Shown here: one piece after another, positions 1,102-35,359 of the stretch | Numbering within the stretch: the first letter of the stretch is position 1 | Layout of the letters: each line of letters starts with the position of its first letter | NCBI GenBank assembly: GCA_050613775.1 | Contig: JBODTK010000136.1 | Location: 124,001-188,000 of the forward strand | DNA: 64,000 nucleotides | From: Neocallimastix sp. 'constans' | Lineage: Eukaryota | Direction of reading: 5' to 3' | The notes under the pieces: generated by a model | Database searches by the model: none | Told to the model about the DNA's origin: nothing | Seen by the model: only the letters and a program-made list of their open reading frames with translations | Translations under genes and position numbers: made by a program

Positions 1102-1597
1102 TGATAAGAATGTACTAAATAATGCATTCTTAATTAAATCTACGATTTATTTCTAATACATTATGTGTACATTATTATTTTTGTACTTTAATAAATTTTT
1201 AAATCCAAAGATCAAAAATTAAATCAAAAATTATATTAAACTTTATATTTTTATATTAAATCTTATATTAATAGTAATATTTTTATATATTTAAAACTTA
1301 TATTAGCAATATTAATAATAAATCTTATTTTTTTTATATTAATAATGAAAATTTATATTAATAATATTTTTATATATTGATAATTAAAAATTTATATATT
1401 ATATTTTAACTTTTTATTATAAAATTTTATATCGAAATGTTTTATTTTATATTGAAAAATATTTTATTTTATTAAAAACCTTTATATTAGAATAGTATTT
1501 TTATTTTTATTTGAATATTTTAACAGATTGTAATAAAAATTATAGCCAATTAAATAAATTCTTATTAGTAATATTTTAGATATTTTTAAATAAATAA

Positions 1598-1653
<56 letters not shown>

Positions 1654-1952
1654 TTTTATTAATATTATAAATGTATTTTATTTATATTGTTATAATTAAA
1701 TTTTATATAATTAATTATAAAAATCAATTTAAATTTAATAGTTTTTAAAAAAAAAAAATAAATAAAATGTAATTTAGTGGCAAGAACAACTTTTATGCCT
1801 TGAAAAAAAGTATAAATAGTTGTAAATTTTGCTACTAATTTTTAAATATCATCAAATAAAATCAAATAAATTTATAAATAAAAATAATAAATAAATAAAT
1901 AAAATTTGTGTTTCCTTACTTTATTTTTATTTAATTCTCTAAAACCTTAACA
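1102..1952 (+). repeat. 3' LTR of element A (851 bp)
   Basis: TG...CA termini; homologous to 1956-2824 and 9143-10009 (inverted) and 28462-29317 (direct). Confidence 0.95.
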
Positions 1953-1955
1953 TTG

Positions 1956-2297
1956 TGTTAAGGTTTTAGAGAATTAAATAAAAATAAAGTAAGAAACACA
2001 AATTTTATTTATTTATTTATTATTTTTATTTATAAATTTATTTGATTTTATTTTATTTTATTTTATTTGATTTGATTTTATTTTATTTTTTTGATATTTA
2101 AAAATTAGTAGCAAAATTTACAACTATTTATACTTTTTTTCCAAGGCATAAAAGTTGTTCTTGCCACTAAATTACATTTTATTATTATTTTTCTTTTTAT
2201 ATATAAAAACTATTAAATTTAAATTGATTTTTATAATCAATTATATAAAATTTAATTATAACAATATAAATAAAATACATTTATAATATTAATAAAA

Positions 2298-2336
<39 letters not shown>

Positions 2337-2824
2337 CTATCTAAAATATTACTAATAAGAATTTATTTAATTGGCTAAAATTTTTATTACACTCTGTTAA
2401 AATATTCAAATAAAAATAAAAATACTATTCTAATATAAAGGTTTTTAATAAAATAAAATATTTTTCAATATAAAATAAAACATTTCGATATAAAATTTTA
2501 TAATAAAAGTTAAAATATAATATATAAATTTTTAATTATCAATATATAAAAATATTATTAATACAAATTTTCATTATTAATATAAAAATAAAAAAAATAA
2601 GATTTATTATTAATATTGTTAATATAAGTTTTAAATATATAAAAATATTACTATTAATATAAGATTTAATATAAAAATTATAAAGTTTAATATAATTTTT
2701 GATCTAATTTTTAATCTTTGAATTTAAAAATTTATTAAAGTACAAAAATAATAATGTACACATAATGTATTAGAAATAAATCGTAGATTTAATTAAGAAT
2801 GCATTATTTAGTACATTCTTATCA
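1956..2824 (-). repeat. 3' LTR of element B
   Basis: Matches 9143-10009 by eye except for poly-T length. Confidence 0.95.
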
Positions 2825-2842
2825 AGATGCCCCGACGAAGAC

Positions 2843-5800
2843 TCAAGCTTCTCTGTAAGCGGAGTTAAACTTTACTAAATTTTTAAAATGAACATTCCTA
2901 TCGAGTTGTTTCCCAGTTTTCTGATCGATTAAGGTTGCCGTGTTGAATTGAATTTTTAAAATTTTAAATGGTCCATTGTAATATGGTTCTAGCTTAGTGC
3001 GGCTAAAGTTTCTAACAAGAACAAGATCACCAGCTTTTAATTCTTTTCCTTTTTTCATACTTATTTGTTCTTCTCGTCTTGTTGCCCAATACTTGTTAGC
3101 ATTCTTCACATTTTCGCATGCTTCTCTAGTCCATTGATAATGACGAACAAATTTTTCCATTAAAATTTCATCATACGATTTACCTGCATTTTCAATTGTT
3201 CTTATGGCTATATCATAAGGCTGTTGGTCTTCTCTTCCATATACTAATTCAAAACTAGAATGTCCGGTAGCTGTGTTTTTGGTAGTTCGAAGTGCCCATA
3301 AAGCAGAAGGTAAAACTTCATCCCAATCTTGATTTTTCCTTCCTAATAAACGAAGTAATTTTCCAATTTCTTTATTTCGGTTTTCAGTGAGACCATTGGA
3401 TTCAGGGTGATAGGTAGCTATGAATTTTACATAAACATCATAAAGATCAAGAAAGATTTTAGTCATATCAGAAGTGAATTGGACTCCATTATCTGTAGTA
3501 ATAACTTGAGGCACACCATGTCTTGCAAAAACGTTTATTAAAAATTTAATTATATCAGAGGAAGTTATGTTTTCAGTGGGTTCGGCTTCAACCCATTTGG
3601 TAAAGTAATCAACAGTTACTATAATATATTGATTATTATTTCTTGTTTTTGGTAACGGTCCTATAATATCTAATCCTAAATGCACAAAGGGACCCTCCAC
3701 TTTAGTTGGATGGTTTTCGGTTGGTTCTGGATATGGTTGAGGACGATTTAACTGGCATTTTTCACAATTACTAACAATTCTTTTGATATCTTTAATCATA
3801 TGATTCCAATAAAAGTTTTTCTTAAGTCTTTGATATGTTTTGTAATATCCTTCGTGGCCAATATTATGAGCTTCTAAAATTAATTTAAACCTTTCATTTT
3901 CGTCCGTTATTAATTTTCTATAATTTCCATTGTCGATAAAATAATCTTCACCATCAATAACAGTAAACTTTTCATTAATAAATTCCTTTATAACTTTAGA
4001 TAATAATTCTTCATTATTTCCATTAGTAATTTTTGTTAATAATATCTTTCTCTCTTCCTTACTTTTCATTCTTGAAAGAGCATCAGCTAACACATTCTTT
4101 TTGCCTGATTCATATTTTATATTAATTCCGAGCATACTAGCGGTTAGACACCATCTTGTTTGCCTTGCATTCAAAGGTTCTTTATTCTTAAATAAACCAA
4201 CTAATGGTTTATGATCTGTGTAAATAGTTGTAGGTAATGGATTTCCTTCAATATAAGATTTAAATTTAGTCATACAGTAAAACAAAGCGGTTCCTTCTAA
4301 ATCGGTAATACCATAATTCTTTTCAGCTTTCTTTAAACTTCTACTTATAAAGTGTATTGGATGCTCCTTACCGGTTTCTTCTTCTTTTTGTAAAAGAACT
4401 CCACCAATTCCATTATACGAAGCATCAGTTCTAATGATAAAAGGTTTGTCAAATGACGGAAATTTTAGAATAGGTGCATTGATTAATTTTTCTTTTAGGA
4501 GTTCAAAGCTTTCTTGTTGTTCTTTATTCCATTCATATTTGGTATTCTTTTTCAATAATTTACATAAAGGTGAGGTAATTTGAGCATATTTAGGAATAAA
4601 ATCACGATAATATCCCACTGCTCCTAAAAATGATCTTAATTCATGAAGTGATGAAGGGGCTTCCCACTTCTTAATAGCTGTTATCTTACTTTCCATGGGA
4701 CTTAATCCTTTAGTAGTAAGTTTGTGACCTAATACATCAACTTCAGTTTGAAGAAAATGGCACTTTTCAATATTAATTTTTAACTTGTTTTCTTTAAATA
4801 CTTCTAATACTTGTTTAATATGAATTAAATGTTCTTCGATACTTTTTGAATAGATCAAAACATCATCAATAAATACATAAACAAATTCACCAATAAAAGG
4901 GAATAAAATTTTATTCATTTCTCTTTGGAAGGTTGAGGGAGCTCCAGTAAGTCCAAAAGGCATAACCTTAAATTGATAATTTCCAAACTTAGTAGTGAAA
5001 GTGGTTACTTCAACGCTTTCTTCATCCATTAAGATTTGGTGAAAACCAGAAAATAAATCAAGAGTTGTAAATATTTTAGCTCCTCCGAGACTATCAAAAA
5101 TTTCATCTATATATGGAACTGAATAAGAATCTTTTTCTGTCATATCATTGACTTTTCGGTAGTCAATGCACAAGCGCCACTTTCCATTGTGTTTTAGAAT
5201 GAGTACTACTGGAGATGACCATTCTGAACAGGATGGTTCTATCAATCCTTTCTTAATAAGCTTTGTAAGTTCTTCTTTTAAGATATCTGATTTTAATTTA
5301 GTTAACCTATAACTTCTTAATTTTACTGGCTTTGCATTTGCTTTCAAACGGATCTTATGTGGTGAAAGTTTAGAAGGAGTTAGTTCTTCTGTTGAAGTGG
5401 CAACTATGTCAATCATTTCTTTGAGAATTTTAATAATTTGTTCTTTATAATCTTTATTTAAGGTACTTAAAAATTCATCACTCTCAATAAATTCCATTGG
5501 AGTTAATTCCTTTATAATTTCCTTTTCATTATTCGTTTCTTCAACTTTTCTAATAGTGCAGATTATACTTTCTTCATCATAATATTGATTATTTATTTTA
5601 GCTATTTCTTCGTATTCACTTTCTGACAAAAGTTTACATAGACTGTTTAAGGTTGGATGAATAAATAAACAATGATCGATTTGAGTTTTAAAGTTTATTA
5701 ACATATCATAAAATGAGTCTTCTTTCTCAATAATTCTAAAGTCCGCATTAAATTCATAATTATTAATTTTTACTGGTAATCGAACAATAATTCCTTCCGA

Positions 5801-6853
5801 GTATTCTTCATCTTGTGTTGCTAGTTGGATTCTTCCACGACTTTTTCCAACTGTTTCATATTCACCAGGTAATTTATCAAAATACTGCTTAGTAACGATG
5901 CTTAGGTTACTACAAGAATCAATTAAAAGTTTTCCTAGTACTCCGTCAACACTTGCATCAACCATTGCTAAGTCTTCTTCGGCTACTTCATTACTTTTAC
6001 TTATGTAGCTATGGTCATAGTTATTTACTAATAAAGTTCGTGCTATTACATTGTCTACAGTTCCAATTATTTTAGACTTTTCTAACTTTAAACCTTGAGT
6101 TAATTGTGAACGAATTTTAGGACATGCATTCAAGAGTTGACCTATCGTAATACTGGATTTAAGATTATTTAAATCATCCATAATATTGTAAGGTTCTTTA
6201 TTATTCATCATTTTGATATTCCTTTTTACTAATTGAGTATTTCCATTATTAGTTTCCTTAGTTTTTGTTGAAATTAATTTTTCCAAAGTATTAGTTTTAT
6301 TTTGTTGATTATCTTTATTCATTTCTAGATCTTCTATTTCATTATCGATTACAAGTATATCTTCAGATTCAACTTTTTCCTTTCCTTTTGATGAATAATT
6401 GTTGTTTTCTTCTTTACTTTCTCTTACTCTTGTCATATTTCTTAATTCCTTTTCTTTTTGTTTTTCTTTGTTAATATTTGGTTGAGTTAAAATTGAAGGA
6501 AGTATTTGATTTTTATAAACTTTATTTGGTTTATTATGCAGCTCATTTTCTTTCTTCTTTCTTAAAGCAGGAGTTGCAAAAGGACGTGGATTATCTTTTA
6601 AACTTTTATGTACTTTCTTGGAATTATTTTCTTCTTTTTCGCTGTTATTATCATTCATTTTTCTTTTTACAGCATTTATAATGATATCATCCTCACTTTC
6701 AGTTGTGTCACTAAAATCAGATTCTTCAGATTCTTCGTTAAAGGAATTATTATCAATTGGAGTATTCTTAGTAAAAGTATTATTTTGTAAATTATTTAAT
6801 GAAGCTATTGTTTTGTCATTGGGAGTGCTTCTGCTCCCATTTAGAAGTTTAAA
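2843..6853 (-). CDS. pol: Element B Pol (protease, RT, RNase H, integrase), reached by -1 frameshift from gag
   Basis: LIDSCS protease, FIDD RT, RTDAS RNase H, HHCC/DDE integrase; frame open from slippery site 6847-6853 to the ORF-track Met at 6658. Confidence 0.95.
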   Translation of the reverse strand, partial: FKLLNGSRSTPNDKTIASLNNLQNNTFTKNTPIDNNSFNEESEESDFSDTTESEDDIIINAVKRKMNDNNSEKEENNSKKVHKSLKDNPRPFATPALRKKKENELHNKPNKVYKNQILPSILTQPNINKEKQKEKELRNMTRVRESKEENNNYSSKGKEKVESEDILVIDNEIEDLEMNKDNQQNKTNTLEKLISTKTKETNNGNTQLVKRNIKMMNNKEPYNIMDDLNNLKSSITIGQLLNACPKIRSQLTQGLKLEKSKIIGTVDNVIARTLLVNNYDHSYISKSNEVAEEDLAMVDASVDGVLGKLLIDSCSNLSIVTKQYFDKLPGEYETVGKSRGRIQLATQDEEYSEGIIVRLPVKINNYEFNADFRIIEKEDSFYDMLINFKTQIDHCLFIHPTLNSLCKLLSESEYEEIAKINNQYYDEESIICTIRKVEETNNEKEIIKELTPMEFIESDEFLSTLNKDYKEQIIKILKEMIDIVATSTEELTPSKLSPHKIRLKANAKPVKLRSYRLTKLKSDILKEELTKLIKKGLIEPSCSEWSSPVVLILKHNGKWRLCIDYRKVNDMTEKDSYSVPYIDEIFDSLGGAKIFTTLDLFSGFHQILMDEESVEVTTFTTKFGNYQFKVMPFGLTGAPSTFQREMNKILFPFIGEFVYVFIDDVLIYSKSIEEHLIHIKQVLEVFKENKLKINIEKCHFLQTEVDVLGHKLTTKGLSPMESKITAIKKWEAPSSLHELRSFLGAVGYYRDFIPKYAQITSPLCKLLKKNTKYEWNKEQQESFELLKEKLINAPILKFPSFDKPFIIRTDASYNGIGGVLLQKEEETGKEHPIHFISRSLKKAEKNYGITDLEGTALFYCMTKFKSYIEGNPLPTTIYTDHKPLVGLFKNKEPLNARQTRWCLTASMLGINIKYESGKKNVLADALSRMKSKEERKILLTKITNGNNEELLSKVIKEFINEKFTVIDGEDYFIDNGNYRKLITDENERFKLILEAHNIGHEGYYKTYQRLKKNFYWNHMIKDIKRIVSNCEKCQLNRPQPYPEPTENHPTKVEGPFVHLGLDIIGPLPKTRNNNQYIIVTVDYFTKWVEAEPTENITSSDIIKFLINVFARHGVPQVITTDNGVQFTSDMTKIFLDLYDVYVKFIATYHPESNGLTENRNKEIGKLLRLLGRKNQDWDEVLPSALWALRTTKNTATGHSSFELVYGREDQQPYDIAIRTIENAGKSYDEILMEKFVRHYQWTREACENVKNANKYWATRREEQISMKKGKELKAGDLVLVRNFSRTKLEPYYNGPFKILKIQFNTATLIDQKTGKQLDRNVHFKNLVKFNSAYREA

Positions 6854-7746
6854 GACTTTTTGGAATATATTTCTTTTTTATTTTTTTCCATAATCTTATT
6901 TAATTGAGGGCAATAGTATGAGTAATGACCTTCTTCCTTACAGAAGAAGCAAGTTTTAACGGATAAATTTCTCATTTTCTGGGTTGATTCTTCTATAATA
7001 TCTTGAGGTTTCGGTTTATTATTTGTTTGATTTGTTTGGAAAGTTTCGTTTCTTCTTTTAGGATAAAGTCTTGAAGTAGTACTGTTTTGATTATTTTGAT
7101 TATGTTGGGAATTATTAACATTATAGGTATTAATATTATTGTTCCTTACAGAAAGTCTATCTACTTTCTCGGCAATTTTGAAAGCTTTATCCATACTTAT
7201 ATCATCTTTAAGGGATAATTTCTTCCAGGCTTCATAATTATTTTGAATAGAATCAATATAATCTAGTACACCAATTCGCTTTCTTCTCTTTTTATCAAGT
7301 TTAGTGTACAAAGTTCTATATCTTACATTAAAGTCTTTAATCTTTTCGTTTCTTTTAATTCGCATTGCACGAAGTTCTTTAAGAAGTAAATTTTGGTCTT
7401 CTTTAATACCGTAAAAATTTTCAAGACTTGAAATAATTTTTTCAAGAGAAGGAAATTTATCATCATCAACATTTTCTTCTTCATCATCTTCTTCTTCATC
7501 TGATGAATCATCACTTTCATCATCACTATCTTCTCCCAAATCTTCAATAACGCGTTGTACTTCACCAGAGCTGGTAAGTAAACAAGCATTAAATATTGTT
7601 TCCGGATCTGTGATACCTTGTATCTTGATCCAAAGTTTTAATTCAGTAGCCCAGGACTTTATATCTAAATTGTCCTTGCTAAGCTTCACTATGTCTCGTA
7701 ATTCTTTCTTTAATTCTTTAAAACTTAAAGTACTTTTAGTAGACAT
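6841..7746 (-). CDS. gag: Element B Gag with CCHC zinc knuckle
   Basis: CFFCKEEGHYSYYC; directly upstream of pol; homologous to G gag. Confidence 0.93.
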   Translation of the reverse strand: MSTKSTLSFKELKKELRDIVKLSKDNLDIKSWATELKLWIKIQGITDPETIFNACLLTSSGEVQRVIEDLGEDSDDESDDSSDEEEDDEEENVDDDKFPSLEKIISSLENFYGIKEDQNLLLKELRAMRIKRNEKIKDFNVRYRTLYTKLDKKRRKRIGVLDYIDSIQNNYEAWKKLSLKDDISMDKAFKIAEKVDRLSVRNNNINTYNVNNSQHNQNNQNSTTSRLYPKRRNETFQTNQTNNKPKPQDIIEESTQKMRNLSVKTCFFCKEEGHYSYYCPQLNKIMEKNKKEIYSKKSLNF

Positions 7747-7928
7747 TTCGTTTTTAGTTAATAATTTTTTTATTGTAAATTAACGAGGTTATTAAATACG
7801 AATAAATTTGAAAGTCCAACTTTAAAAATATAATTTAACAAGTAATTTAATATCGAATCAAATTTTAAAACAATATATCTTAGTAATTTTTGAAAATAAT
7901 AATTTTATTTGCTTTCTTTAGTAAGTAT

Positions 7929-8116
7929 AAGCTCGAAATCCTTATCGACAACTTAGTAGAAATTATAAAGCACGAGGTTCTTTTCGACTACTTTTTTAAG
8001 AATAATTTTAAGTTCGAAATCTTTATCGACAACTTAATAGAATAATTTTAAGTTCGAAATCTTTATCGACAACTTAATAGAATATTTTTCAAGCTCGAAA
8101 TCTTTATCGACCACTT
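7929..8116 (-). repeat. Five ~40 bp tandem hairpin repeats in the B 5' leader
   Basis: Unit core AAGTTCGAAATCTTTATCGACAACTT (plus strand) with variants. Confidence 0.85.
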
Positions 8117-8696
8117 GAATTTTGTAATTTAGTATATTTGTAGTAATAAATTTAGAAGCAAAGTTTTATTTATTATTTTCACCTTTCAAAAATTTTTCTT
8201 TTTAAACGATAAATATTGTATTGTTATAGCTAATAAAATTATTAATTAATTATAATTATTAAATACAAAAAAATAATCTTTATTGTCGTACAATCTGATA
8301 GTACACACTGTCTGACGTGCAGCTTACCTAATGGTGTCATGCCACGCGTGTGCCACGATTACTATATTCAATATAAAATATAGCAGTTCAGAGCCCACTA
8401 GCCCAATTACTATGTAGGATAAACTTAATCCGATAATCTATGTACGGAATAAAAAAATTTTAAAAGTATTCAATAATATTTTTATTAACTAATAAAAATT
8501 AACTAAAAACACAATATTTTCAAAGTAAATTAAGATTCTTTTACAGGAATTATTAAACAAATAAAGTATCAGTAATAAAAAAAAATAAAAAAAATTTAAA
8601 TGGCGAAGTTAGCCAAAGTCTGATACTTTATATAATAAAGTGCCTTATAACTAGCACAAAGAAAAGTAAAAAAAAATATATATAAAAAAAAACAAT

Positions 8697-8913
8697 CTTA
8701 CGCCTTCGGTGACGTAAGCTCCTTATTCGCCAGTGCTTGGAAAGTACCCGCACCTTCGTGTGTTGAAACGTTGAAGGCTGAACTATTATTACCGGGTCGG
8801 TAACCAAATACCTTCGTCTACTTTCCAATTAATCTCCAAATTAACTACTATTCAATAACCTACTATGAATAGAGTTAATTTGTTGCTATCTGAGAATACA
8901 CTGTGTATGAGCT
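8697..8913 (-). ncRNA. Putative structured cis-RNA in the B leader (homolog in D)
   Basis: Motifs TCATAYACAGTGT, GCACTGG and CTTAYR-TCACCGAAGG-YRTAAG shared with 22089-22324, with compensatory changes. Confidence 0.7.
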
Positions 8914-9118
8914 CTATCCGCTCCTTGTTATAATTTTACAAAATTTGTTTTTTTTTTTGAATCTTAATTTTACTTATTTAAAAAAAATTTTTTTTTATAT
9001 ATATATCAAACAAGCGCCATAGGTTAATCAAAGGATTAACGACTTACTTGTTTATCAATATAAAATAAAAAAAAATTAAAAAAAAAATCTATGTTATTTA
9101 CTATTATTTCTATTTAAT

Positions 9119-9136
9119 TCCCCGATATCGCCACCA
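9119..9136 (-). promoter_or_regulatory. Primer-binding site of B (tRNA 3'-end type, tRNA identity not determined)
   Basis: TGGTGGCGATATCGGGGA on the minus strand, 6 nt after the 5' LTR. Confidence 0.8.
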
Positions 9137-9142
9137 TATAAA

Positions 9143-9484
9143 TGTTAAGGTTTTAGAGAATTAAATAAAAATAAAGTAAGAAACACAAATTTTATTTATT
9201 TATTTATTATTTTTATTTATAAATTTATTTGATTTTATTTTATTTTATTTTATTTGATTTGATTTTATTTTATTTTTTTGATATTTAAAAATTAGTAGCA
9301 AAATTTACAACTATTTATACTTTTTTTCCAAGGCATAAAAGTTGTTCTTGCCACTAAATTACATTTTATTATTATTTTTCTTTTTATATATAAAAACTAT
9401 TAAATTTAAATTGATTTTTATAATCAATTATATAAAATTTAATTATAACAATATAAATAAAATACATTTATAATATTAATAAAA

Positions 9485-9521
<37 letters not shown>

Positions 9522-10009
9522 CTATCTAAAATATTACTAATAAGAATTTATTTAATTGGCTAAAATTTTTATTACACTCTGTTAAAATATTCAAATAAAA
9601 ATAAAAATACTATTCTAATATAAAGGTTTTTAATAAAATAAAATATTTTTCAATATAAAATAAAACATTTCGATATAAAATTTTATAATAAAAGTTAAAA
9701 TATAATATATAAATTTTTAATTATCAATATATAAAAATATTATTAATACAAATTTTCATTATTAATATAAAAATAAAAAAAATAAGATTTATTATTAATA
9801 TTGTTAATATAAGTTTTAAATATATAAAAATATTACTATTAATATAAGATTTAATATAAAAATTATAAAGTTTAATATAATTTTTGATCTAATTTTTAAT
9901 CTTTGAATTTAAAAATTTATTAAAGTACAAAAATAATAATGTACACATAATGTATTAGAAATAAATCGTAGATTTAATTAAGAATGCATTATTTAGTACA
10001 TTCTTATCA
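9143..10009 (-). repeat. 5' LTR of element B
   Basis: Direct repeat of 1956-2824. Confidence 0.95.
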
Positions 10010-10475
10010 ATTGTGATACGGTACCACCATAAATACCATAATTTAATGAAACTTAGGTTAGGAATTATTTGATAAAATCTTATTGGTTAATAATAATTTA
10101 GTAATATTATATATAGTTAGTAAATAATAATAATTTAAAGAATGGTTCTTTTATTAATATTAATTTAGTTTATTAATAATTTAACCTATAAACATGTTTA
10201 TTAGTATAGTTTAGTGTAGTTTTATATTTAGTTTACATTAATAATATGAGAGATTTTAGTAATTAATTATATTTTATTGAATGATTTAATTATATTTTAA
10301 CTAATTAACAACTATTTATATTGATGATGTATTTTTATTGATGAATGATAATAAATAAATAAAATAAATAAACTAAATATTAAAGTGTGAATATTATTAT
10401 TGTGTGTATTATTCTATATAATATTAGAATATATTATTTTGTCAATTATTCCCTACTGTTATCGTCCAAATAAAA

Positions 10476-13237: not shown

Positions 13238-13396
13238 AATATATAACGTATAAATATATATATATATTTTATAAATCATTATTAATTAGTTATTAAAAAA
13301 AATAAAATTTATTAAAAAAAAAAAAAAAAAAATTTATGAAAGTAACTAAATTTTGGTGACTTCAAGGGACGAAGTCTAATTTCAGTGGGGGCATTT

Positions 13397-18800: not shown

Positions 18801-19585
18801 ATGAAACAGTTGGTCAAGTTGAAAGGTGTAATTCTTTTATTGAACAATATTTAAGAGCTTACTCAAGATCATATTATCATGATGATTGGATTGAATGGAT
18901 TCACCTTGCTGAATTTGTTTATAATAACTCCATTAATGAATCTACAAAAGAAACACCCTTCTTTATTAATTATGGTTTTCATCCATCTATGGATGAATTT
19001 TTCTTATTACCTGATATTGATACTAATAATAAAATTATTAAGGACTTAAGCATGAACTTTAATCATATTAAAGATGTTTTATTAAGGTCAAAAGAACTAT
19101 ATAAAATACACGCAGATAAAAAGAGAATGCCACCTCCAATATTTAAAGAAAATGATTTAGTTTGGATACAAGCTCCTCCATCACTAAATATCGAAGATAG
19201 TTCAAAGTTAGCTCCTTGTAAATATGGACCATATAAAGTAATAGATGTTCTGAATAATCATAATTATAAAATAGATATTAAAAGGTCACCTTTTCCAAAA
19301 CATCATCCTATATTCCATGTTTCGGAGTTAGAACCTTTTATTCCAACACCTCAAAAGTTTTTAAAAAGAAGAACTCATGATGAATCTGTTAATGATATAA
19401 TTGAAATCTCAGGATTTAGAACTAATTATAAAAAGAATCAATATGAATACAGAATCAGGTATAAATATAGAACTGCTTACAATTGGGTTCCTTCAGACGA
19501 AGTTGAAAATAACCCCCGAAATCAAAATATTTATTTACAATATTTACAAAATGGAAGAAAACCTATTTCAATAGCTTATAACTAA
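15842..19585 (+). pseudogene. pol: Element E Pol (PR-RT-RH-IN-chromodomain) with in-frame stop at 16721-16723
   Basis: LDSGS, YLDD, ECDAS, HHCC, YGPY, C-terminal YEYRIRYK..NWVP chromo-like; ORFs 15953 and 16916 share a frame separated by one TAA. Confidence 0.88.
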
Positions 19586-21683
19586 AATGATAATAATAAT
19601 ATTATTATAAAAAAAAAAAAAAAAAAAAAAAAATTGGAAATTTTATTTTTTATTATTATTAATTCGTTTTTAAATTTTATTTTATTATTATCAATTTTTC
19701 AGTCAAATTTCAATTTCAAAATTTCGAAATTTTCAAAATTTTCAAAATTCAAAAACATAGCTATGTTACACTTACAACTATCAATTTATAATCAAATTTT
19801 ATTCATAAATTCATTAATTATTATAATTTTCAATTTTTTTAAAGTTAATGCATAAAATTAAAAAGTTAATTGAAATTAAAATTTCAAAATTTCAATTTCA
19901 AAAATTTTTAATCAAAAACATTTAAAAATGGTACCATCATATTCTTAAACATCAATTTTTATAACAAAATTTTAATTTTATTAAATTTTAGAAATTTCAA
20001 AATTTCAATGAAATGGTCACTTATAAAGGGTTTCCTTTTAAAATTTAAAAGGACTCAAGTGGCCTTCCTCCTTTATAAATTAAAAAAATTTTAATTTAAG
20101 AAATTTCAAAAAATTTTTAACAAAAAATTTAGTCCTCCTTATCGTTACACAAAAATCGTCTTGAATCCGATTTTTATAGGAGGGCATTGTTGAAATTATA
20201 ACTGAATTGAAATCTCAATTTCAGTTATTCACATTTCAATATACATTTAATTAATAATTAATATAAATTCTTATTTAGTATTTAAAGAATTATCTTAGGC
20301 CTAATAATTCTGAAAATATTAATAAATAAGATTTATATTAATAATTTCAATTATTTACATATGACGTCACATGTATTTATTTATATTATGTTTATATATA
20401 TGTTTATATCATATATATTAATTACTATTTTTAATTATTCAAATTAATTATACAAATTAAATTTATTTAATTATATTAAATATTTTAAACATATCGATAT
20501 TGTTATTATTTTAATATTTTATTAATATTCATTTTACTATATTATTATTATCTTATAATTAAATACTATTATTATGTAACTTACAAAGTATAAAAGAAAG
20601 ATGTAAAAATCTATCTTTTATGTTCTTTGTAAGGTTATTGTATTTACAATAATTATATACTAATAATTCAATAAATAAATATTTTCATAAATCCTTCAAA
20701 GAAATTATTATTTAAAATATTCTTAGATATTAAGTGTTTAAATAACTTAACTATTTATCTTATATTATTTTTATATTATTATTAATTAATTATTGTTGGA
20801 TTATTAATATATAATTCAACATATTAACCTAGTAACGTTATTAATCATAAAACTATTTTATATCTTAATTTTAACAATATTAAAGTAAAAAATATCATTA
20901 ACAATTATAAATAAATAATAAAAAATTGAATATTAAAATATTAGTTATAGAATATTATAAAGTTAAATAAAAATAATTAGATGTATTAAAAAATCATGTA
21001 TTAATTATATTATTTAATATTGTAAAATTTTTATATTATATTTTAATAATTTAGAAAATTTAAGCTTATTATATTTTTATTACTATATTTTTATTATTAA
21101 ATTTTTATTATTAAATTTTTATTATTAATTTTTTTATTTTTATTTTTAATCCAATCAAATAAATATTTTATTAGTATAAAAAAGAACAAAGTAACACAAT
21201 ACTTTTGTTCTCTCCCTTTTTTTCTTACGACTTTATTATTATATTATTTTTTTAATATTTTCTAAAAGTTAAATAATAAATTAAATAGTTTAAAATAAAT
21301 TAAAATTTATTAAATAGTTTTTTCTAAATTTAATGTTTTAAAAGTGTTTAATTAATAGTTTTTTGTGTTTAGTGTATAATATTAAGATAAGTATAGTATA
21401 AAATTAGTTTAGTAATAGATTAGTTGTATTAAACATTTTATAGAAATAGTAATAGATTTAGAGAAATTGTTTAGTTTAGATTAGAATAGTTTAGATTAAG
21501 ATATTAGTTTAAGTTATTTTAACTTAGTTTAGATTCTTTTAGATTAGGATAGTTTAGACTAAAATTAGAGTAGTTTATTAATTAATTTAGGTTTAGAATT
21601 AGAGAATAATATTTTAAATTTTTCCTTATTATTAGAATATATTATTTTATTAATAAAATCTTCAGATCTTGTACCATAAAATT

Positions 21684-21700
21684 TGGCGAGCTATGCAGGA
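21684..21700 (+). promoter_or_regulatory. Primer-binding site of D, tRNA-Arg-like
   Basis: TGGCGAGCTATGCAGGA 7 nt after the LTR; resembles the TGGCGAGCC-type tRNA-Arg PBS. Confidence 0.75.
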
Positions 21701-21758
21701 CCTGAAGAGATAAAATAATATGAAAATAATAATTTGAGAAAATTTTAATAATTAATAA

Positions 21759-21805
<47 letters not shown>

Positions 21806-21905
21806 AATTTAATCAATAAATAAATAATAAATAAATAATTAAATAAATAATAAGATAAATAAAATAAATAAATAAATAAATAAAATAATAATAATAAATA
21901 AATAA

Positions 21906-21960
<55 letters not shown>

Positions 21961-22004
21961 TTATTCTAAAATATTATTAATAGTAGTTATAAAAAATTAA
22001 TAAT

Positions 22005-22043
<39 letters not shown>

Positions 22044-22088
22044 TTATTTTTACTTTTTTGAGAATATTAAAATCAAAAAGTATAATAA

Positions 22089-22324
22089 TTCATATACAGT
22101 GTTTAAACCGTAAGAAAATTAATTAATAATAAGTTAGGGTGATTCCAATTTATTATTAATTAAGGTTTTTAATCGATCTCGTGAGTGCGTGAATACGTCC
22201 CAAAGTAATAATTATACTCCCCACGGCACTTTCCGTAGTTTATCAACTATCCGAGTGTTGTCAGGGTTTTTGGACAAGATCGAGCACTGGAACAATAATG
22301 AACTTATATCACCGAAGGTATAAG
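22089..22324 (+). ncRNA. Putative structured cis-RNA in the D leader (homolog in B)
   Basis: Same motifs and pairings as 8697-8913 on the minus strand. Confidence 0.7.
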
Positions 22325-22699
22325 GTTTTCTTTTTTAGAATTATTATATTAATATAAAATAAAGTCGCGTCAACAATAAATAAATCGAAATATTCAGCAA
22401 AAATTTTTTCAGTTTATTAGCAATTAAAATTTCAATTCAGTAATAGTTTAATTTTTCAATATTTAGTTATTTCAAAATTTAGTTTAATTAAGATATAAAT
22501 TTTTTTTTTAATCATTCATCCATCCATCAACTTAATAAAAATATACAATTAAAAGAATATATTAATTCATCAATTTAATAAATAAAACAATTAATAATAA
22601 TAAAAATAATAAAAATAAATTTATATAAGACATTTATCTCCTCATTCATCCATCAATTCATCAATTAAATTTTAAAAGCATTAGATTTTTTTTATCAAA

Positions 22700-23695
22700 A
22701 TGAAAATTTTAGAATTGGAAAGGCTATTACCCAGACTTAACGAAAGCGCAAGGGATGTCGATTCATGGATCGATGAATTTTCAAGAATAATGGCACTGGC
22801 AGATATCACCAATCCAAGAAGCATTCTTACCTGGGCAATGGAGTGTGTAGAAGGAAAGTTGAGGGGCACTTTACAAGAACTACATACAATAGATGAGGAA
22901 GGTAATGAACATTTTCCATCAATGAGAGAAATAAAAGAAGCAATTGAAAATTCATTAGAAGTAACTCCACAAGAGAAATGTAAAAGACTACAACGAATGA
23001 AAATTCAAAGAGGAGAAAGCATAAAAAACTTTAATTGGAGATATAGGAAAATTTATAACAGTCTACCAAAATTGTACCAAACATTTATAACAATAGAAGA
23101 TTATGCTGATTCGATTATCTACCGTCCTTATGCTAGATCACAAGTAATAACACAACGATGTATAGATCTTGAAGATGCTTTTGAAGAAGCAGAGTTAGCT
23201 GAAAGAGCTGAAGAAGGAGGAAATCTTAGAAATGAAACCGTGATGATGACAGTATTTAATTCTCAACCATTCTATTACCGAAGTAACACTCATCCATTTA
23301 AGCAATTCAATTCTCCAAGTTATAATTATAATTATAATGGAAGACAATTTTACATTAAGAAAACTCCTCGAAATTATACAAATTATAATGAAAATAGAGA
23401 ATTTACAACTAATAATTTTAATACTAAATTCAATTCTAAAAATGAAATTATGCAAAGTAATAATTTAGAAAATACCACACAAAATATTAAAGATAGTAAA
23501 ATAAGAAATAACTTGGTAAATAATGAAATCAAACAAGCCAGAAATACATTTAATTCTGAGAAATCCCATATTATTTGTTACCGTTGTGGACAACAAGGAC
23601 ACATTTATAAACTATGTCCTTATTCCTTTAAAGAATTTGCTAAACTAAGAAATCAAAATAATACAATAAATTCAAACAATCATTTAAACTTCTAA
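22700..23695 (+). CDS. gag: Element D Gag with CCHC knuckle
   Basis: CYRCGQQGHIYKLC; ends HLNF over T TTA AAC. Confidence 0.93.
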   Translation: MKILELERLLPRLNESARDVDSWIDEFSRIMALADITNPRSILTWAMECVEGKLRGTLQELHTIDEEGNEHFPSMREIKEAIENSLEVTPQEKCKRLQRMKIQRGESIKNFNWRYRKIYNSLPKLYQTFITIEDYADSIIYRPYARSQVITQRCIDLEDAFEEAELAERAEEGGNLRNETVMMTVFNSQPFYYRSNTHPFKQFNSPSYNYNYNGRQFYIKKTPRNYTNYNENREFTTNNFNTKFNSKNEIMQSNNLENTTQNIKDSKIRNNLVNNEIKQARNTFNSEKSHIICYRCGQQGHIYKLCPYSFKEFAKLRNQNNTINSNNHLNF

Positions 23696-26600
23696 ACGGG
23701 AGAAGGGAAACTCCCAGTAATCAAACCAATGATGAAATAGTAGCTACTGCAGTTAGAAGAAAAGGAAAACAAGTTTTTGAAAAACCATATTCAAGAGATA
23801 AAAGAAAACAAAATGAAAATAAAGTAAATGATAATATTTCTAATTCTAATAATATCATACAAGAAGATAATGAAGATATAGAAATTGAAACCAACGAAAT
23901 AAATACAATATCTAACACTCCTATAAATGAAACCGAAAGACTTGAGGAGATTGATGTGTCAGTTATTGCGCAACCCTCAATCAACAAAGCTAAACGAAAT
24001 TCAAAGAAACAAAAAGAAAAAGAAATATTAGAAAGCACTAAGAATCTCGAGGTTAGTTCTAATAAAGAATCTAGAGTTAAACTTCCAAGTGTAGAATTAG
24101 AAGAGAAGAAAGTTAAAACCAACAATCCCAATAAACAAATAACCATTATGGAAGGTCAATCAAAATATGATATTTGTAAAGACATAAGTACTAGGTTTGC
24201 TAATATTACATTACCTCAATTATTGGATGTTAGTCCTAAACTCCGTGCTGATATTGTAAAGGCCTTAAAATTAAAAACTACAGAAACAATTAAAGAGACT
24301 CCTGAAGAAGTTGTATTATCTGCTATACGTAGGGAAGATGTTGCTACAGTTGAATGTTTAATTAATGGAGTCCAAGGTATTGCATTTTTAGACACAGGCG
24401 CAAGCATTAATATTATTACTAGACAATTTTTAAACAAGTTAGGAGATGTAAAACCAATTGGATTTGTTAAAAATAATATTGTTCAATTATTATCTAAAGA
24501 GAATGTTAATACTGAAATCTACTTGCTAAAAGTTCAACTTGGAGATTTAGCTATTCATGATATATTCCGAGTTATAGATAATCACCAAAACCTATTTGAT
24601 GTTTTAATTAGCTATAAAACACTTAAAGAAAATAATTTATTTATTAATCCTATTAATAATAATTTGTGCATAATGAAAGAAAATAACAAATGGATGTGTG
24701 TCAAAAATCTTTGCAAAGAAGAGAAAGGAAATGTTATTAGTGATGATGAAGATGCTGAATCAATAATTATATATGATAAAACAAATTCTGATATTAATAA
24801 TAATTCCTATCTTTATTGCTTTGTTAATGAAATTGATAATATTAATGATAACTTAACAATAACTCAAAATAAAATAGAAGACTCTAAAACAATAACTAAA
24901 GAAGTAGATATCATTAATGAAAATGGTGTTTTTGAAAAAGATCAACTCCTGCAAAATATACTTAAAGGAATTCCAAAAAAGCTAAGAAATGAAGTAAAAA
25001 AGTTATTTGATGAATATAATACTATTCTTGCCACAAAAATTGATGAGTTAAAACCAACTAAATTGTTACCTCATAGTATTCAACTCGAGCCTAACGCTAA
25101 ACCGATTAAACAGAGATGTTATCGACTTTCTAAAGTTCAAGCATTAGCTCTTAAAAAGGAATTAGAAAAACTTATAAAAAATAAACTAATTGAACCATCA
25201 CACTCCCCTTGGTCTTCTCCCGTTATTTTAGTGCCTAAGAAAAATAAACAGTGGAGAATATGTATAGATTTTCGAAAACTAAACAATCTTACTATTAAAG
25301 ATGCATATTCGTTACCGCTTATAGATGAAATTTTATTTTCTATCGGGAAAAAAGTTAAAGTTTTTACTACGATTGATTTATTTTCGGGATTTCATCAGAT
25401 CCCTATGAACAAAGAAGATATTCCTAAAACTAGCTTTGCTACAATGTATGGTAACTATCAATTCTTAGTTATGCCCTTTGGTTTATGCAATGCCCCAGGT
25501 ACTTTTCAAAGGGAAATGAATAGAATATTCTTTCCTCTTATTGGAGTATGCATGTTTGTTTATATCGATGATCTAGTTATATTTTCACCCTCCTTTGAAC
25601 AACATATTATAGATATTAAGAAAGTGTTTGATATTATCAAAGAAAATGGATTAAAAATTAACTTAGAAAAATGTCATTTTTTTAAAATAAAAGTCGAATT
25701 GTTAGGACATACTTTATCAATTAATGGTATTTCCCCTATTCAAGCTAAAGTTCAAGTCATATTAGAATGGATACCACCAAAAAATGTTACACAATTACAA
25801 TCTTTCCTTGGTGCAGTGGGTTATTACCGTAAATTTATTCTTAACTTCGCTAATATAGCAAAACCATTATTTAAACTTGTTAAAAAAGGTGTAAAGTTTG
25901 TCTGGGGTAAAGAACAAGAAGAAAGCTTTAATGAGTTGAAACTAAAATTAGCATCTGCTCCTATTCTTGTTATGCCTGACTTTGAAAAACAATTTATAAT
26001 CAGAACGGATGCCTCTTTCGATGGTATTGGAGGTGTTTTACTTCAGAAAGATGAGAATGGTATTGAAAAGCCAATTCACTTCGTAAGTCGCTCTTTAAAA
26101 CCGGCGGAAAAGAATTATTCAATAACTGATCTTGAAGGAACTGCCGCGACTTACTGCGTTCAAAAATTTAAATCTTATATTTCTGGAAATAAATATGAAA
26201 CTCTTTTATTCACCGATCATAAACCTTTAGTTGGACTTTTCAAAAATAAAGAAACTAACAATTCTAGACAAACTCGATGGGTATTACTTCTATCAATGCT
26301 AAAAGTTAAAGTCTTATATGAACCTGGAAAGAAAAATGTCATCGCTGATGCACTTTCTAGATTATCAACAAAAGAAAATACAATATTAACAACTGTTACT
26401 GAAGAGATAAATGAAAATAATCCGTATAACTTACTTACAAAATTTAAAGATAAATTTACAATAATTAATAACGAAGAATATTATAAAGACCATGGAAAAC
26501 TTAGAAAAGTTATAAAAAATCAAAACGAAAAAATTGATTTAATACTAAAAGCTCACAAAGTTGGTCACGAAGGAGTATTTAAAACTTACAATAGACTTAA

Positions 26601-27594
26601 ACGTGACTACTATTGGATCAACATGATACTTGACGTTAAATACATTGTCAGAACTTGTGATAGGTGTCAACACTTTAGATCGCAATCTTTTAATAACCAA
26701 ACAGAAGATATTGCTACTCAACCTGGTTTACCATTTACGAAAGTTGGCTTGGATATAGTAGGTCCACTTCCTACTTCAAGAAAAGGAAATAAATATATAA
26801 TAGTTTTAGTAGATTACTTAACAAAGTGGGTTGAAGCAGAACCAACCCAAAATATTGATTCAGATGATGTAATAGAATTTTTATCCAAGATTTTTGCTCG
26901 ATTCGGAATACCAGAAATATTAGTAACTGATAACGGTCCACAGTTCTGTTCTGATAAAACAAAAGCATTCTTAGACTTATATGGTGTTTATGTTAACTTC
27001 GTTGTTACTTATCATCCAGAATCTAATGGTCAAGTAGAAAATCGAAACAAAGAGATAGGCAAATACCTTAGATTACTTTGTAATAAAAATACATCAATAT
27101 GGGATGAAATGCTACCTAGTGCTTTATGGGCCTTGCGTACTTGTAAAAATGAAACAACTAAATTTTCAAGTTTTGAATTGTTATATGGCCGACGTGACCT
27201 TCAGCCGTTTGAATTACAATTAAACTTAGATAAAAAGGAAAATTATGAAAGTGATGATGAATTTTTAATTAGAAGATTTACAAAACATTATAAATGGATC
27301 AAGGAAGCCATAAATAATATTCAAACAGCAAACAAAATCTGGGAAGATAGAAGAAAACAAGTAAAAAGACTTAAAGCTAATTATAAACCAGGAGATCTAG
27401 TATTAATTAAATATATTAATAGAAGAAAACTTGATCCATACTTCTTAGGTCCTATGAAAATTGTTAAAAAACAATTCAATACTGTAACGTTATGTGATCC
27501 ATTAACAAACGAAATTGCTGAAAGAAATGTCCACTTAAAGAATATTATACCTTATAGACTATGCGAAATTGAGACTTCAAGGGACGAAGTCTGA
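23683..27594 (+). CDS. pol: Element D Pol (PR-RT-RH-IN), -1 frame
   Basis: FLDTGA, YIDD, RTDAS, HHCC, DDE; frame open from the slippery site. Confidence 0.95.
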   Translation, partial: FKLLNGRRETPSNQTNDEIVATAVRRKGKQVFEKPYSRDKRKQNENKVNDNISNSNNIIQEDNEDIEIETNEINTISNTPINETERLEEIDVSVIAQPSINKAKRNSKKQKEKEILESTKNLEVSSNKESRVKLPSVELEEKKVKTNNPNKQITIMEGQSKYDICKDISTRFANITLPQLLDVSPKLRADIVKALKLKTTETIKETPEEVVLSAIRREDVATVECLINGVQGIAFLDTGASINIITRQFLNKLGDVKPIGFVKNNIVQLLSKENVNTEIYLLKVQLGDLAIHDIFRVIDNHQNLFDVLISYKTLKENNLFINPINNNLCIMKENNKWMCVKNLCKEEKGNVISDDEDAESIIIYDKTNSDINNNSYLYCFVNEIDNINDNLTITQNKIEDSKTITKEVDIINENGVFEKDQLLQNILKGIPKKLRNEVKKLFDEYNTILATKIDELKPTKLLPHSIQLEPNAKPIKQRCYRLSKVQALALKKELEKLIKNKLIEPSHSPWSSPVILVPKKNKQWRICIDFRKLNNLTIKDAYSLPLIDEILFSIGKKVKVFTTIDLFSGFHQIPMNKEDIPKTSFATMYGNYQFLVMPFGLCNAPGTFQREMNRIFFPLIGVCMFVYIDDLVIFSPSFEQHIIDIKKVFDIIKENGLKINLEKCHFFKIKVELLGHTLSINGISPIQAKVQVILEWIPPKNVTQLQSFLGAVGYYRKFILNFANIAKPLFKLVKKGVKFVWGKEQEESFNELKLKLASAPILVMPDFEKQFIIRTDASFDGIGGVLLQKDENGIEKPIHFVSRSLKPAEKNYSITDLEGTAATYCVQKFKSYISGNKYETLLFTDHKPLVGLFKNKETNNSRQTRWVLLLSMLKVKVLYEPGKKNVIADALSRLSTKENTILTTVTEEINENNPYNLLTKFKDKFTIINNEEYYKDHGKLRKVIKNQNEKIDLILKAHKVGHEGVFKTYNRLKRDYYWINMILDVKYIVRTCDRCQHFRSQSFNNQTEDIATQPGLPFTKVGLDIVGPLPTSRKGNKYIIVLVDYLTKWVEAEPTQNIDSDDVIEFLSKIFARFGIPEILVTDNGPQFCSDKTKAFLDLYGVYVNFVVTYHPESNGQVENRNKEIGKYLRLLCNKNTSIWDEMLPSALWALRTCKNETTKFSSFELLYGRRDLQPFELQLNLDKKENYESDDEFLIRRFTKHYKWIKEAINNIQTANKIWEDRRKQVKRLKANYKPGDLVLIKYINRRKLDPYFLGPMKIVKKQFNTVTLCDPLTNEIAERNVHLKNIIPYRLCEIETSRDEV

Positions 27595-27611
27595 ACTTAG
27601 GGGTGGCATCA

Positions 27612-28457
27612 TGTTACGGTACAATTAAATAAAGAAAAATTAAACTATTTAAAGAAAATATTAAAGTAAAAAATATCATTAACAATTATAAATAAATAAT
27701 AAAAAATTGAATATTAAAATATTAGTTATAGAATATTATAAAGTTAAATAAAAATAATTAGATGTATTAAAAAATCATGTATTAATTATATTATTTAATA
27801 TTGTAAAATTTTTATATTATATTTTAATAATTTAGAAAATTTAAGCTTATTATATTTTTATTACTATATTTTTATTATTAAATTTTTATTATTAAATTTT
27901 TATTATTAATTTTTTTATTTTTATTTTTAATCCAATCAAATAAATATTTTATTAGTATAAAAAAGAACAAAGTAACACAATACTTTTGTTCTCTCCCTTT
28001 TTTTCTTACGACTTTATTATTATATTATTTTTTTAATATTTTCTAAAAGTTAAATAATAAATTAAATAGTTTAAAATAAATTAAAATTTATTAAATAGTT
28101 TTTTCTAAATTTAATGTTTTAAAAGTGTTTAATTAATAGTTTTTTGTGTTTAGTGTATAATATTAAGATAAGTATAGTATAAAATTAGTTTAGTAATAGA
28201 TTAGTTGTATTAAACATTTTATAGAAATAGTAATAGATTTAGAGAAATTGTTTAGTTTAGATTAGAATAGTTTAGATTAAGATATTAGTTTAAGTTATTT
28301 TAACTTAGTTTAGATTCTTTTAGATTAGGATAGTTTAGACTAAAATTAGAGTAGTTTATTAATTAATTTAGGTTTAGAATTAGAGAATAATATTTTAAAT
28401 TTTTCCTTATTATTAGAATATATTATTTTATTAATAAAATCTTCAGATCTTGTACCA
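27612..28457 (+). repeat. 3' LTR of element D
   Basis: TGTTAC...GTACCA; uninterrupted copy with a single ATATT at the E target site. Confidence 0.95.
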
Positions 28458-28461
28458 ACTG

Positions 28462-28946
28462 TGATAAGAATGTACTAAATAATGCATTCTTAATTAAATC
28501 TACGATTTATTTCTAATACATTATGTGTACATTATTATTTTTGTACTTTAATAAATTTTTAAATCCAAAGATCAAAAATTAAATCAAAAATTATATTAAA
28601 CTTTATATTTTTATATTAAATCTTATATTAATAGTAATATTTTTATATATTTAAAACTTATATTAGCAATATTAATAATAAATCTTATTTTTTTATTTTT
28701 ATATTAATAATGAAAATTTGTATTAATAATATTTTTATATATTGATGATTAAAAATTTATATATTATATTTTAACTTTTATTATAAAATTTTATATCGAA
28801 ATGTTTTATTTTATATTGAAAAATATTTTATTTTATTAAAAACCTTTATATTAGAATAGTATTTTTATTTTTATTTGAATATTTTAACAGATTGTAATAA
28901 AATTTATAGCCAATTAAATAAATTCTTATTAGTAATATTTTAGATA

Positions 28947-29003
<57 letters not shown>

Positions 29004-29317
29004 TTTTATTAATATTATAAATGTATTTTATTTATATTGTTATAATTAAATTTTATATAATTGATTATAAAATTCAATTTAAATTTAATAGTTTTTATAA
29101 AAAAAAAAAAAAATAAATAAAATGTAATTTAGTGGCAAGAACAACTTTTATGCCTTGAAAAAAAGTATAAATAGTTGTAAATTTTGTTACCAATTTTTAA
29201 AAAATCATCAAATAAAATCAAATAAATTTAATAAAATAAATAAATAAAATAAATAAATAAATAAATAAAATTTGTGTTTCTTACTTTATTTTTATTTAAT
29301 TCTCTAAAACCTTAACA
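28462..29317 (+). mobile_element. Solo LTR of the A/B family
   Basis: Homologous to 1102-1952; flanked by ACTG (28458-28461, 29318-29321); no PBS follows. Confidence 0.9.
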
Positions 29318-29340
29318 ACTGAAGATTTCGTTACATTAAC

Positions 29341-35315: not shown

Positions 35316-35359
<44 letters not shown>

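What the first reader, a model, noticed from the sequence alone, without database searches (positions are those of the whole stretch)
1102..29335. Multi-family Gypsy train joined LTR end to LTR end through shared 4-bp target duplications
Seen: five consecutive junctions have no host DNA between elements: A-CA|TTG|TG-B (1952/1956), B-CA|ATTG|TG-C (10009/10014), C-CA|ATTG|TG-D (13902/13907), D-CA|ACTG|TG-soloLTR (28457/28462), soloLTR-CA|ACTG (29317). B and C each have ATTG on both sides, the solo LTR has ACTG on both sides, and D has ATTG/ACTG. Three dissimilar LTR families and both orientations take part, so unequal LTR recombination cannot explain it. All share TG-N-TA...TA-N-CA termini, and the coding members have a chromodomain-less integrase tail (GP[FLM]K..RN[VI]H[FL]KN). 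The unrelated chromovirus E instead inserted inside an LTR with a 5-bp TSD. Inference: this clade repeatedly integrates at one site or at pre-existing LTR termini, building non-destructive tandem arrays. Double insertions are known in Drosophila; a cross-family LTR-end-targeting system in this fungal group is not known to me.
Basis: partly seen in the sequence, partly recalled or inferred. Interest (0 to 1): 0.9.

Follow-up and report, generated by a model that had tools for sequence, protein, structure and literature searches.

The report
Retrotransposon train stacked inside another repeat
In a gut-fungus genome, five retrotransposon copies from three related families sit end to end with only 3-4 shared bases between them, likely because this lineage keeps inserting 16-24 bases inside the end of a different repeated element, an aiming rule we did not find described for LTR retrotransposons.

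Summary
The train is real in the assembly: A|B|C|D|solo abut through TTG, ATTG, ATTG, ACTG, and the solo ends in ACTG; the B, C, D and E LTR pairs carry no substitution; nested E has a 5-bp duplication. A/B, C, D and G form one chromodomain-less Ty3/Gypsy clade of anaerobic gut fungi. The train and element G both end 18 and 16 bp inside the same 16-bp TG...CA terminus of another element, H. A relative of H sits apparently un-hit in L006; a C end in run X5 and a D-like end in L087 abut H-type sequence at about 20 and 20-24 bp. The spacer ATTG is the reverse complement of that H's positions 15-18. Best reading (0.55): position-specific integration just inside H's end, repeated at the same four bases. 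Flush LTR-end recognition is a rival (0.2). No genome was held, the window's own junctions were not bridged by any listed contig, and some C flanks do not match H. New variant of site-specific LTR integration; interest 0.68.

The parts
1..1952 (+). Element A (A/B family), cut by the window edge: integrase end 1-1083, 3' LTR 1102-1952
1953..1955 (.). A|B spacer TTG (ATTG if A's last base is counted)
1956..10009 (-). Element B, full length: 5' LTR 9143-10009, tRNA-type PBS, gag 6841-7779, pol 2843-6877, 3' LTR 1956-2824; LTRs without substitution
10010..10013 (.). B|C spacer ATTG
10014..13902 (+). Element C: 5' LTR cut at 10475 by an internal deletion (PBS, gag, protease lost), RT-RH-IN frame to 13237, 3' LTR 13397-13902
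13903..13906 (.). C|D spacer ATTG
13907..28457 (+). Element D: 5' LTR 13907-21676 (interrupted by E), PBS, gag 22685-23695, pol 23662-27594, 3' LTR 27612-28457; 846-bp LTRs identical
13958..20876 (+). Element E, unrelated Tf-like Gypsy nested in D's 5' LTR, 689-bp identical LTRs, 5-bp duplication ATATT; not part of the train rule
28458..28461 (.). D|solo spacer ACTG
28462..29317 (+). Solo LTR of the A/B family, ACTG on both sides
29318..29335 (-). H2: terminal 18 bp of repeat H (TG start on the minus strand at 29335); its positions 15-18 are the duplicated ACTG; inferred to be inserted in G's leader
29336..35600 (+). Element G (same clade): leader without 5' LTR or PBS in the window, gag 29654-30592, pol 30577-34545, 3' LTR 34572-35600
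35601..35616 (-). H1: terminal 16 bp of repeat H, identical to H2, flush with G's 3' end
35617..37655 (-). Copia element (gag, protease, start of integrase) broken at 35617 by H1; outermost host of the nest

Best explanation
Five copies from three families of one chromodomain-less Ty3/Gypsy clade abut through 3-4 shared bases, likely because the clade's integrase is positioned about 16-24 bp inside the TG-end of a different, dispersed repeat (H) and hits the same four bases again and again. Shown: the junctions, the clade, two copies of H's terminus in the window each next to a clade LTR end (18 and 16 bp in). Inferred: H is an LTR-like mobile element; the nest is Copia > H1 > G > H2 > train; each insertion duplicates four bases of H (positions 15-18 in the train), so the next one lands between intact neighbours; a protein bound to H (host factor or an integrase bound to H's end) acts as a ruler, while the CA-N4-TG junction left by each insertion may fix the register. 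The ATTG/ACTG difference needs one later base change or a crossover inside D between two such trains.
For: Window: identical 16-mer at 29320 and 35601 only (2 matches, 0.08 expected), identity stops exactly at the CA; it does not fit the Copia frame of 20 aligned relatives. L006: a 13/16 relative begins exactly where a clade integrase frame breaks (chance about 2e-4) and continues CA-ATTA-TG; three different host flanks, so H is dispersed. Run X5: the first 9 letters behind a C end equal the reverse complement of L006-H positions 12-20 (0 of 127,982 window 9-mers match). L087: a D-like 3' LTR is flush with a 12-mer equal to L006-H positions 21-32 (absent from the window). ATTG is the reverse complement of L006-H positions 15-18. 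A repeated target explains why a sister C'-type end joins a D start in the same 4-bp register in X6 (record 11, 46 letters, 1 mismatch, no gap) and why the consensus of 5 contigs before the D start in X14 resembles it (8 of last 10 and 10 of first 11 letters). One X6 C flank matches H 18-28 at 9 of 11 (null 0.0013; post hoc). Nearest solved integrase is PFV, whose 4-bp duplication is recalled.
Against: Few cases: two in the window, one 9-letter match taken from a consensus of two contigs, one in a short-read contig whose end may be misjoined (L087 repeats the 12-mer at 6191 without the H start). The second C flank in X5 and a variant C flank in X6 do not match H, so targeting is not absolute or H is diverse. 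The H sequence used comes from another sample (13/16 identity); the window's own H interior was never seen, and H was not shown to have a second end, a duplication or coding capacity. Registers spread over 16-24 bp, yet four of five train insertions share one register, which a ruler alone does not explain. D's flanks differ although its 846-bp LTRs are identical. E-like sequence also joined the D LTR at the window's position in an X5 contig with 3 other letters (record 6), unexplained. No tether protein was identified.
Confidence: 0.55

Rival explanations
1. The clade's integrase recognises resident LTR ends or TA-N-CA/N4/TG-N-TA junctions of its own clade and inserts flush next to them (first reader; like IR-targeting of IS30/IS911). 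H is hit only because its positions 13-24 mimic such a junction.
For: All members share TG-N-TA...TA-N-CA ends; four inner junctions are symmetric around the spacer; L006-H carries CA-ATTA-TG at 15-22; C/C'-D junctions recur in X6 and X14; explains the constant register.
Against: The founder site on the right (ACTG-AAGAT) and G's site are not clade ends; hits in H fall at 16, 18, 20 and 20-24, not only at the mimic; founder duplications should then vary, yet the spacer in X6 record 11 is within one letter of the window's.
Confidence: 0.2
2. An ordinary short sequence preference (A-Y-T-G-like, as in Drosophila double insertions) plus a local hot spot and later recombination or duplication built one array; H is incidental.
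For: Double insertion at one site is documented (PMC5932611, passages read); D's unequal flanks suggest a crossover; higher depth of X6 record 11 (194 against 37-51) could be segmental copies rather than separate insertions.
Against: A 4-bp word cannot single out one site in a fungal genome five times; H-type sequence borders clade ends in four places from three data sets; seen duplications at H differ (ACTG, TAAT, TGAA and TGTA inferred).
Confidence: 0.12
3. Ty3/Tj1/DGLT-A-type tethering by RNA polymerase III factors: a tRNA gene or Pol III promoter left of the window, or inside H, anchors the train, which grows leftwards.
For: Position-specific insertion with a few bp of spread is what Ty3, Tj1 and DGLT-A do (PMC4600332, PMC5006619, passages read); damage rises to the right (solo, D with E, deleted C; B intact, A intact as far as seen), as expected if the newest copies are on the left.
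Against: No tRNA or Rfam RNA in the window or in L006 and L087, which hold H-type interior; both orientations occur, whereas 17 Tj1 inserts reported there shared one orientation at Pol III genes.
Confidence: 0.08
4. Assembly artefact that chains repeats.
For: No listed contig bridges a window junction with 31 letters on both sides (most rows not shown); A and B form an inverted repeat.
Against: Target duplications are coherent across junctions, A and B differ mostly at silent sites, and like junctions occur in independent runs.
Confidence: 0.05

Closest known systems
Double-insertion tandems of Drosophila TEs (McGurk and Barbash 2018, PMC5932611 / 10.1101/158386; passages read)
   Same: Neighbouring elements separated by one copy of the target duplication; an inverted Rover LTR dimer with a 6-nt motif is described
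   Different: There mostly dimers of one family; here five members of three families, both orientations, at a fixed position inside another repeat
Ty3, Tj1 and DGLT-A position-specific integration at Pol III genes (PMC4600332, PMC5006619; passages read)
   Same: Gypsy-type elements (DGLT-A defined there as lacking a chromodomain) placed within a few bp of a landmark
   Different: Landmark here is the end of a mobile repeat; no Pol III gene found; duplication 4 bp against 5 bp for Tj1; both orientations
IR-targeting of IS30 and IS911 (PMC9333248; passages read)
   Same: DDE enzyme inserts next to element ends and makes end-to-end junctions with short spacers
   Different: Bacterial copy-out/paste-in ISs that target the outside of their own ends, IS30 with fixed IRL-IRR orientation; here LTR retrotransposons, several families, site inside a foreign end
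Plant tandem LTR retrotransposons (PMC11899658; passages read) and nested plant LTR elements (PMC6911290; abstract read)
   Same: Gypsy elements in arrays or inside other elements
   Different: Plant tandems share LTRs and lack inner duplications; nested plant insertions are said to avoid LTRs
Non-LTR elements aimed at other repeats (R1/R2 in rDNA; Tx1L in Tx1D, recalled, not checked)
   Same: A multicopy target gives a renewable, harmless landing site and tandem arrays
   Different: Those use target-primed reverse transcription with an endonuclease, not an integrase

Membership tests
Ty3/Gypsy LTR retrotransposon | LTRs with TG...CA, gag then PR-RT-RH-IN order | tested here: met
   (B, D, G; C deleted; A cut by the edge)
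Ty3/Gypsy LTR retrotransposon | PBS and PPT | tested here: met
   TGG-type PBS after B and D 5' LTRs, G-rich tract before all 3' LTRs; G and C lack the PBS in the window
Chromovirus | C-terminal chromodomain on integrase | tested here: not met
   A/B, C, D, G end 8-16 residues after the GP..HxKN tail; for E, an 80-residue extension gave no Pfam match, so E's label is unproven
One clade (A/B, C, D, G) | Monophyly against E and outside Gypsy elements | tested here: met
   Quick IQ-TREE, 71 RT-RH rows (every third relative kept), SH-aLRT 99 for 45 clade rows, E outside; careful search did not finish
Double-insertion tandem | Each element has its own two ends and the target duplication lies in the junction | tested here: met
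   B, C, solo have equal flanks; D differs by one base; A's left flank is outside the window
Shared-LTR (recombination) tandem | Neighbours share one LTR | tested here: not met
Pol III-targeted Gypsy (Ty3/Tj1/DGLT-A type) | tRNA, 5S or U6 gene within about 35 bp of the insertion | tested here: inconclusive
   None at the right end or in H-type interiors; the left end of the train is outside the window
IS30/IS911-type end targeting | Insertion next to the outside of the element's own ends, genome-wide enrichment | not testable with these tools
   No genome held; read tables show 12 of 36 and 24 of 2576 loose-end rows
Ylt1-like fungal non-chromoviral Gypsy | RT groups with Ylt1 | not tested
   No Ylt1 sequence was in hand; PMC3248453 (passages read) names the group and has no Neocallimastigomycota
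H as an LTR element | Two TG...CA ends, target duplication, dispersed copies | tested here: inconclusive
   One TG end seen at three unrelated host sites; second end, duplication and interior not seen in the window

The most novel reading that the evidence does not exclude
A whole Gypsy clade of anaerobic gut fungi uses the end of another mobile element as its landing signal: its intasome is tethered by a protein sitting on H's terminal 16 bp (about one integrase footprint) and inserts just beyond it, so H carries a portable safe harbour on which several families stack without breaking each other, a eukaryotic counterpart of IS end targeting.
Probability: 0.3. Interest if true: 0.9.

Novelty: new variant of a known kind. 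Interest (0 to 1): 0.68.

Why it matters
Known position-specific LTR integrases aim at Pol III genes, promoters or heterochromatin. One that aims within a few bases inside the end of another mobile element would be a new targeting landmark, would explain how large repeat blocks grow in gut-fungal genomes without hitting genes, and would offer a short, portable integration site for fungi that still lack good genetic tools. It is directly testable in existing long-read assemblies.

Tried and rejected
No own genome, so no genome-wide flank count. Exact-pattern scans: A-end in viral contigs gave 4 chance phage matches; A-start in genome contigs 0; C-D junction pattern in viral contigs 9 matches, judged chance from GC 31-54% without further reading; H start in viral contigs 0. 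The single metagenome scan went to the integrase: 6 of 80 loci were clade members, 5 more came from MAG contigs; only 1 of these 11 shows a true outer LTR flank (L087). Laying 8 kb on four runs was swamped by AT-rich noise; depth cannot give copy numbers. Absence of dispersed flanks at the D start (only the PPT contig at 13907, against 6 and 7 long unlike flanks at the E start) is not significant because E has about 16 times the summed depth. Rejected: spacers as left-over cDNA ends (bases next to PBS and PPT are different); the 16-mer as native Copia sequence, as G's PBS or LTR end (G's end aligns with the A-family end at 35600), or as a tRNA piece; fold-back chimera for A|B. An aberrant 16-bp duplication made by G is not excluded but would have to stop exactly at the CA. 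Dating along the train failed: all LTR pairs lack substitutions. The residue after DNG in the integrase (P in C, D; V in B, G; P 46, V 19, T 7, R 6, S 2, A 1, unmatched 28 of 109) does not track the shared site. Earlier scan notes: five look-ups, nothing. No structure or complex prediction was run.
Full report
Setting. The window is 23.6% GC. The D integrase region finds 109 listed protein clusters at 41-100% identity from gut-type sources, two named from Orpsp1, before plant and animal elements at about 30-40%; runs holding the DNA are faeces or gut metagenomes and coded isolates. The host is therefore taken as an anaerobic gut fungus (inference). No whole genome is held.

The observation. 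Self-comparison and direct reading give A (1-1952, +), B (1956-10009, -), C (10014-13902, +), D (13907-28457, +) and a solo LTR of the A/B family (28462-29317, +), separated by TTG, ATTG, ATTG and ACTG, with ACTG after the solo. B's LTRs differ by no substitution (the end gap there was a coordinate slip), D's 846-bp and E's 689-bp LTRs are identical, C's are identical over the 462 bp that survive its internal deletion. E lies in D's 5' LTR with ATATT on both sides. Termini are TG-N-TA...TA-N-CA. A and B differ at 24 of 1083 coding bases, 22 in third positions, so the inverted pair is no fold-back. A quick tree of 71 RT-RH rows puts B, C, D, G and 41 relatives on one branch (SH-aLRT 99) with E outside; the careful search did not finish and two thirds of the relatives were left out. 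The nearest solved integrase is PFV, then Ty3. The tail motif is in 97 of 109 relatives. Pfam did not find a chromodomain in E.

A 16-mer, TG...CA, occurs at 29320-29335 and 35601-35616 and nowhere else in the window at up to 2 mismatches (0.08 expected). The solo LTR ends 18 bp and element G (same clade, 3' LTR 34572-35600) 16 bp inside it. The right copy breaks a Copia integrase frame and does not fit the residues of the 20 relatives that could be aligned, of 32 found. The left copy is followed by G's leader, which lacks a 5' LTR and PBS in the window. In L006, an independent metagenome contig, a 13/16 relative starts exactly where a clade integrase frame breaks and continues CA-ATTA-TG; 3 such matches were found in 95,826 positions of the 11 fungal loci, the other two in coding DNA, so the position, not the match, carries the weight (about 2e-4). 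I call this repeat H and infer the nest Copia > H1 > G > H2 > train, with the other halves left of the window.

Independent hits at H. (i) Run X5: two contigs leave the C end at 13902; the first 9 letters of their consensus equal the reverse complement of L006-H 12-20 (0 of 127,982 window 9-mers). I attribute these letters to the deeper contig, which has exactly 9 loose letters; this is inferred from a consensus. The other contig does not match H from letter 10 on. (ii) L087, a fungal contig in a MAG: a D-like 3' LTR is flush with a 12-mer equal to L006-H 21-32; the 12-mer recurs at 6191 without the H start, which is unexplained. (iii) Run X6: the consensus of two C flanks matches H 18-28 at 9 of 11 letters (null 0.0013; post hoc, suggestive only); a further variant C end at 13890 was not counted. 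The train spacer ATTG is the reverse complement of L006-H 15-18. Registers are thus 16, 18, 20 and 20-24 bp from H's end.

Junctions in other data. X6 record 11 lies over 13888-13933 with 1 other letter and no gap, but its 27 upstream letters match the window's C at only 12 of 27: a sister C'-type end joined to a D start in the same 4-bp register, at depth 194 against 37-51 for unique flanks (depth is no copy number). X6 record 10 covers a C-type end, four bases and 12 bases of a D-like start (5 other letters in 53) and then departs. In X14 the consensus of 5 contigs before the D start matches the window's junction at 8 of the last 10 letters and the C' sequence at 10 of the first 11; its last letter does not fit and agreement is only 0.56. 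E starts show 6 and 7 long unlike flanks (agreement 0.57-0.59). Only 12 of 36 loose-end rows and 16 of 189 pieces were shown, and 24 of 2576 and 32 of 26,596; no listed piece bridges one of the window's own junctions with 31 letters on both sides. X5 record 6 joins the D LTR to E-like sequence at the window's position with 3 other letters, which I cannot explain.

Mechanism. Shown: stacking through shared bases, one clade, H terminus next to two clade ends in the window. Inferred: the intasome is placed at a near-fixed distance inside H's end, cuts with a 4-bp stagger, and each repaired insertion leaves the same four bases for the next; a 1-bp shift explains A|B and a 2-bp shift G. The symmetric CA-N4-TG junction may then fix the register. 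Polarity is open: growth from H's terminus makes the solo the newest and ATTG ancestral (as in L006); growth from H's unseen interior makes A the newest and fits damage rising to the right (solo, D with E, deleted C; about 1 in 10 by chance). D's unequal flanks need one base change while 846-bp LTRs stayed identical, or a crossover between two trains. No tRNA or Rfam RNA was found in the window, L006 or L087. The tether is unknown.

Literature. Ten searches found no description of multi-family LTR trains at a site inside another element's end; the library lacks most subscription journals. Passages read: PMC5932611 and its preprint (double insertion), PMC11899658 (shared-LTR tandems), PMC9333248 (IS30 IR-targeting), PMC4600332 and PMC5006619 (Pol III targeting), PMC3248453, PMC13728883 (calls these fungi's LTR elements largely uncharacterised, citing Navaratna et al. 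2024), PMC12341934 (no relevant text); abstract only: PMC6911290. Navaratna et al. 2024 was not held and may describe the clade; no supplements were opened, and Supplemental Table S2 of PMC5932611 lists LTR-LTR junctions that I did not see. PFV's 4-bp duplication, the 16-18-bp integrase footprint and Tx1L are recalled.

Verdict. Observation confirmed; interpretation partly supported and redirected to a site inside repeat H. New variant of site-specific LTR integration, best explanation 0.55, interest 0.68.

Noticed in passing
window 13361-13379 and 27571-27593; L004, L087, L088 before the PPT: A short inverted repeat (GACTTC...GAAGTC type) just upstream of the PPT is kept across C, D and relatives and is read as the TSRDEV tail where the integrase frame runs through it; likely a cis signal for plus-strand priming.
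   Followed up: no
window 9136-9142, 21677-21683; L001, L087, L088: The gap between the LTR end and the TGG of the PBS is 5-9 nt in this clade (2 in L003), longer than the usual 2, so the cDNA U5 end may need longer 3' processing; three different PBS sequences occur in the clade.
   Followed up: partly
window 14647-14660: E has no TGG PBS; 10 nt after its 5' LTR are complementary to LTR position 442, as in self-priming Tf1-like elements.
   Followed up: partly
run X5 record 6 on window 13928-13978: D LTR joined to an E-like start at the same base as in the window but with 3 other letters and higher depth; possibly an E hot spot in the D LTR or duplicated copies.
   Followed up: no
L003 920-1440: A clade LTR is followed by PBS, then at once a second PPT and a TG start, then gag-pol; possibly a mini-element or a collapsed assembly.
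   Followed up: no
L087-L091: Gut-fungal retrotransposon contigs are binned into bacterial and archaeal MAGs of the genome collection (contamination).
   Followed up: no
window 29337-29500: G's leader holds three imperfect tandem copies of about 72 bp.
   Followed up: no
window 38976-39240: GC-richer stretch with short internal and inverted repeats, possibly the end of a DNA transposon.
   Followed up: no
window 44407-48882; 53949-57830; 58853-63700: An F-BAR protein gene with a 51-bp coding repeat, and a cluster of related LINE (endonuclease-RT) copies, follow the retrotransposon nest.
   Followed up: no
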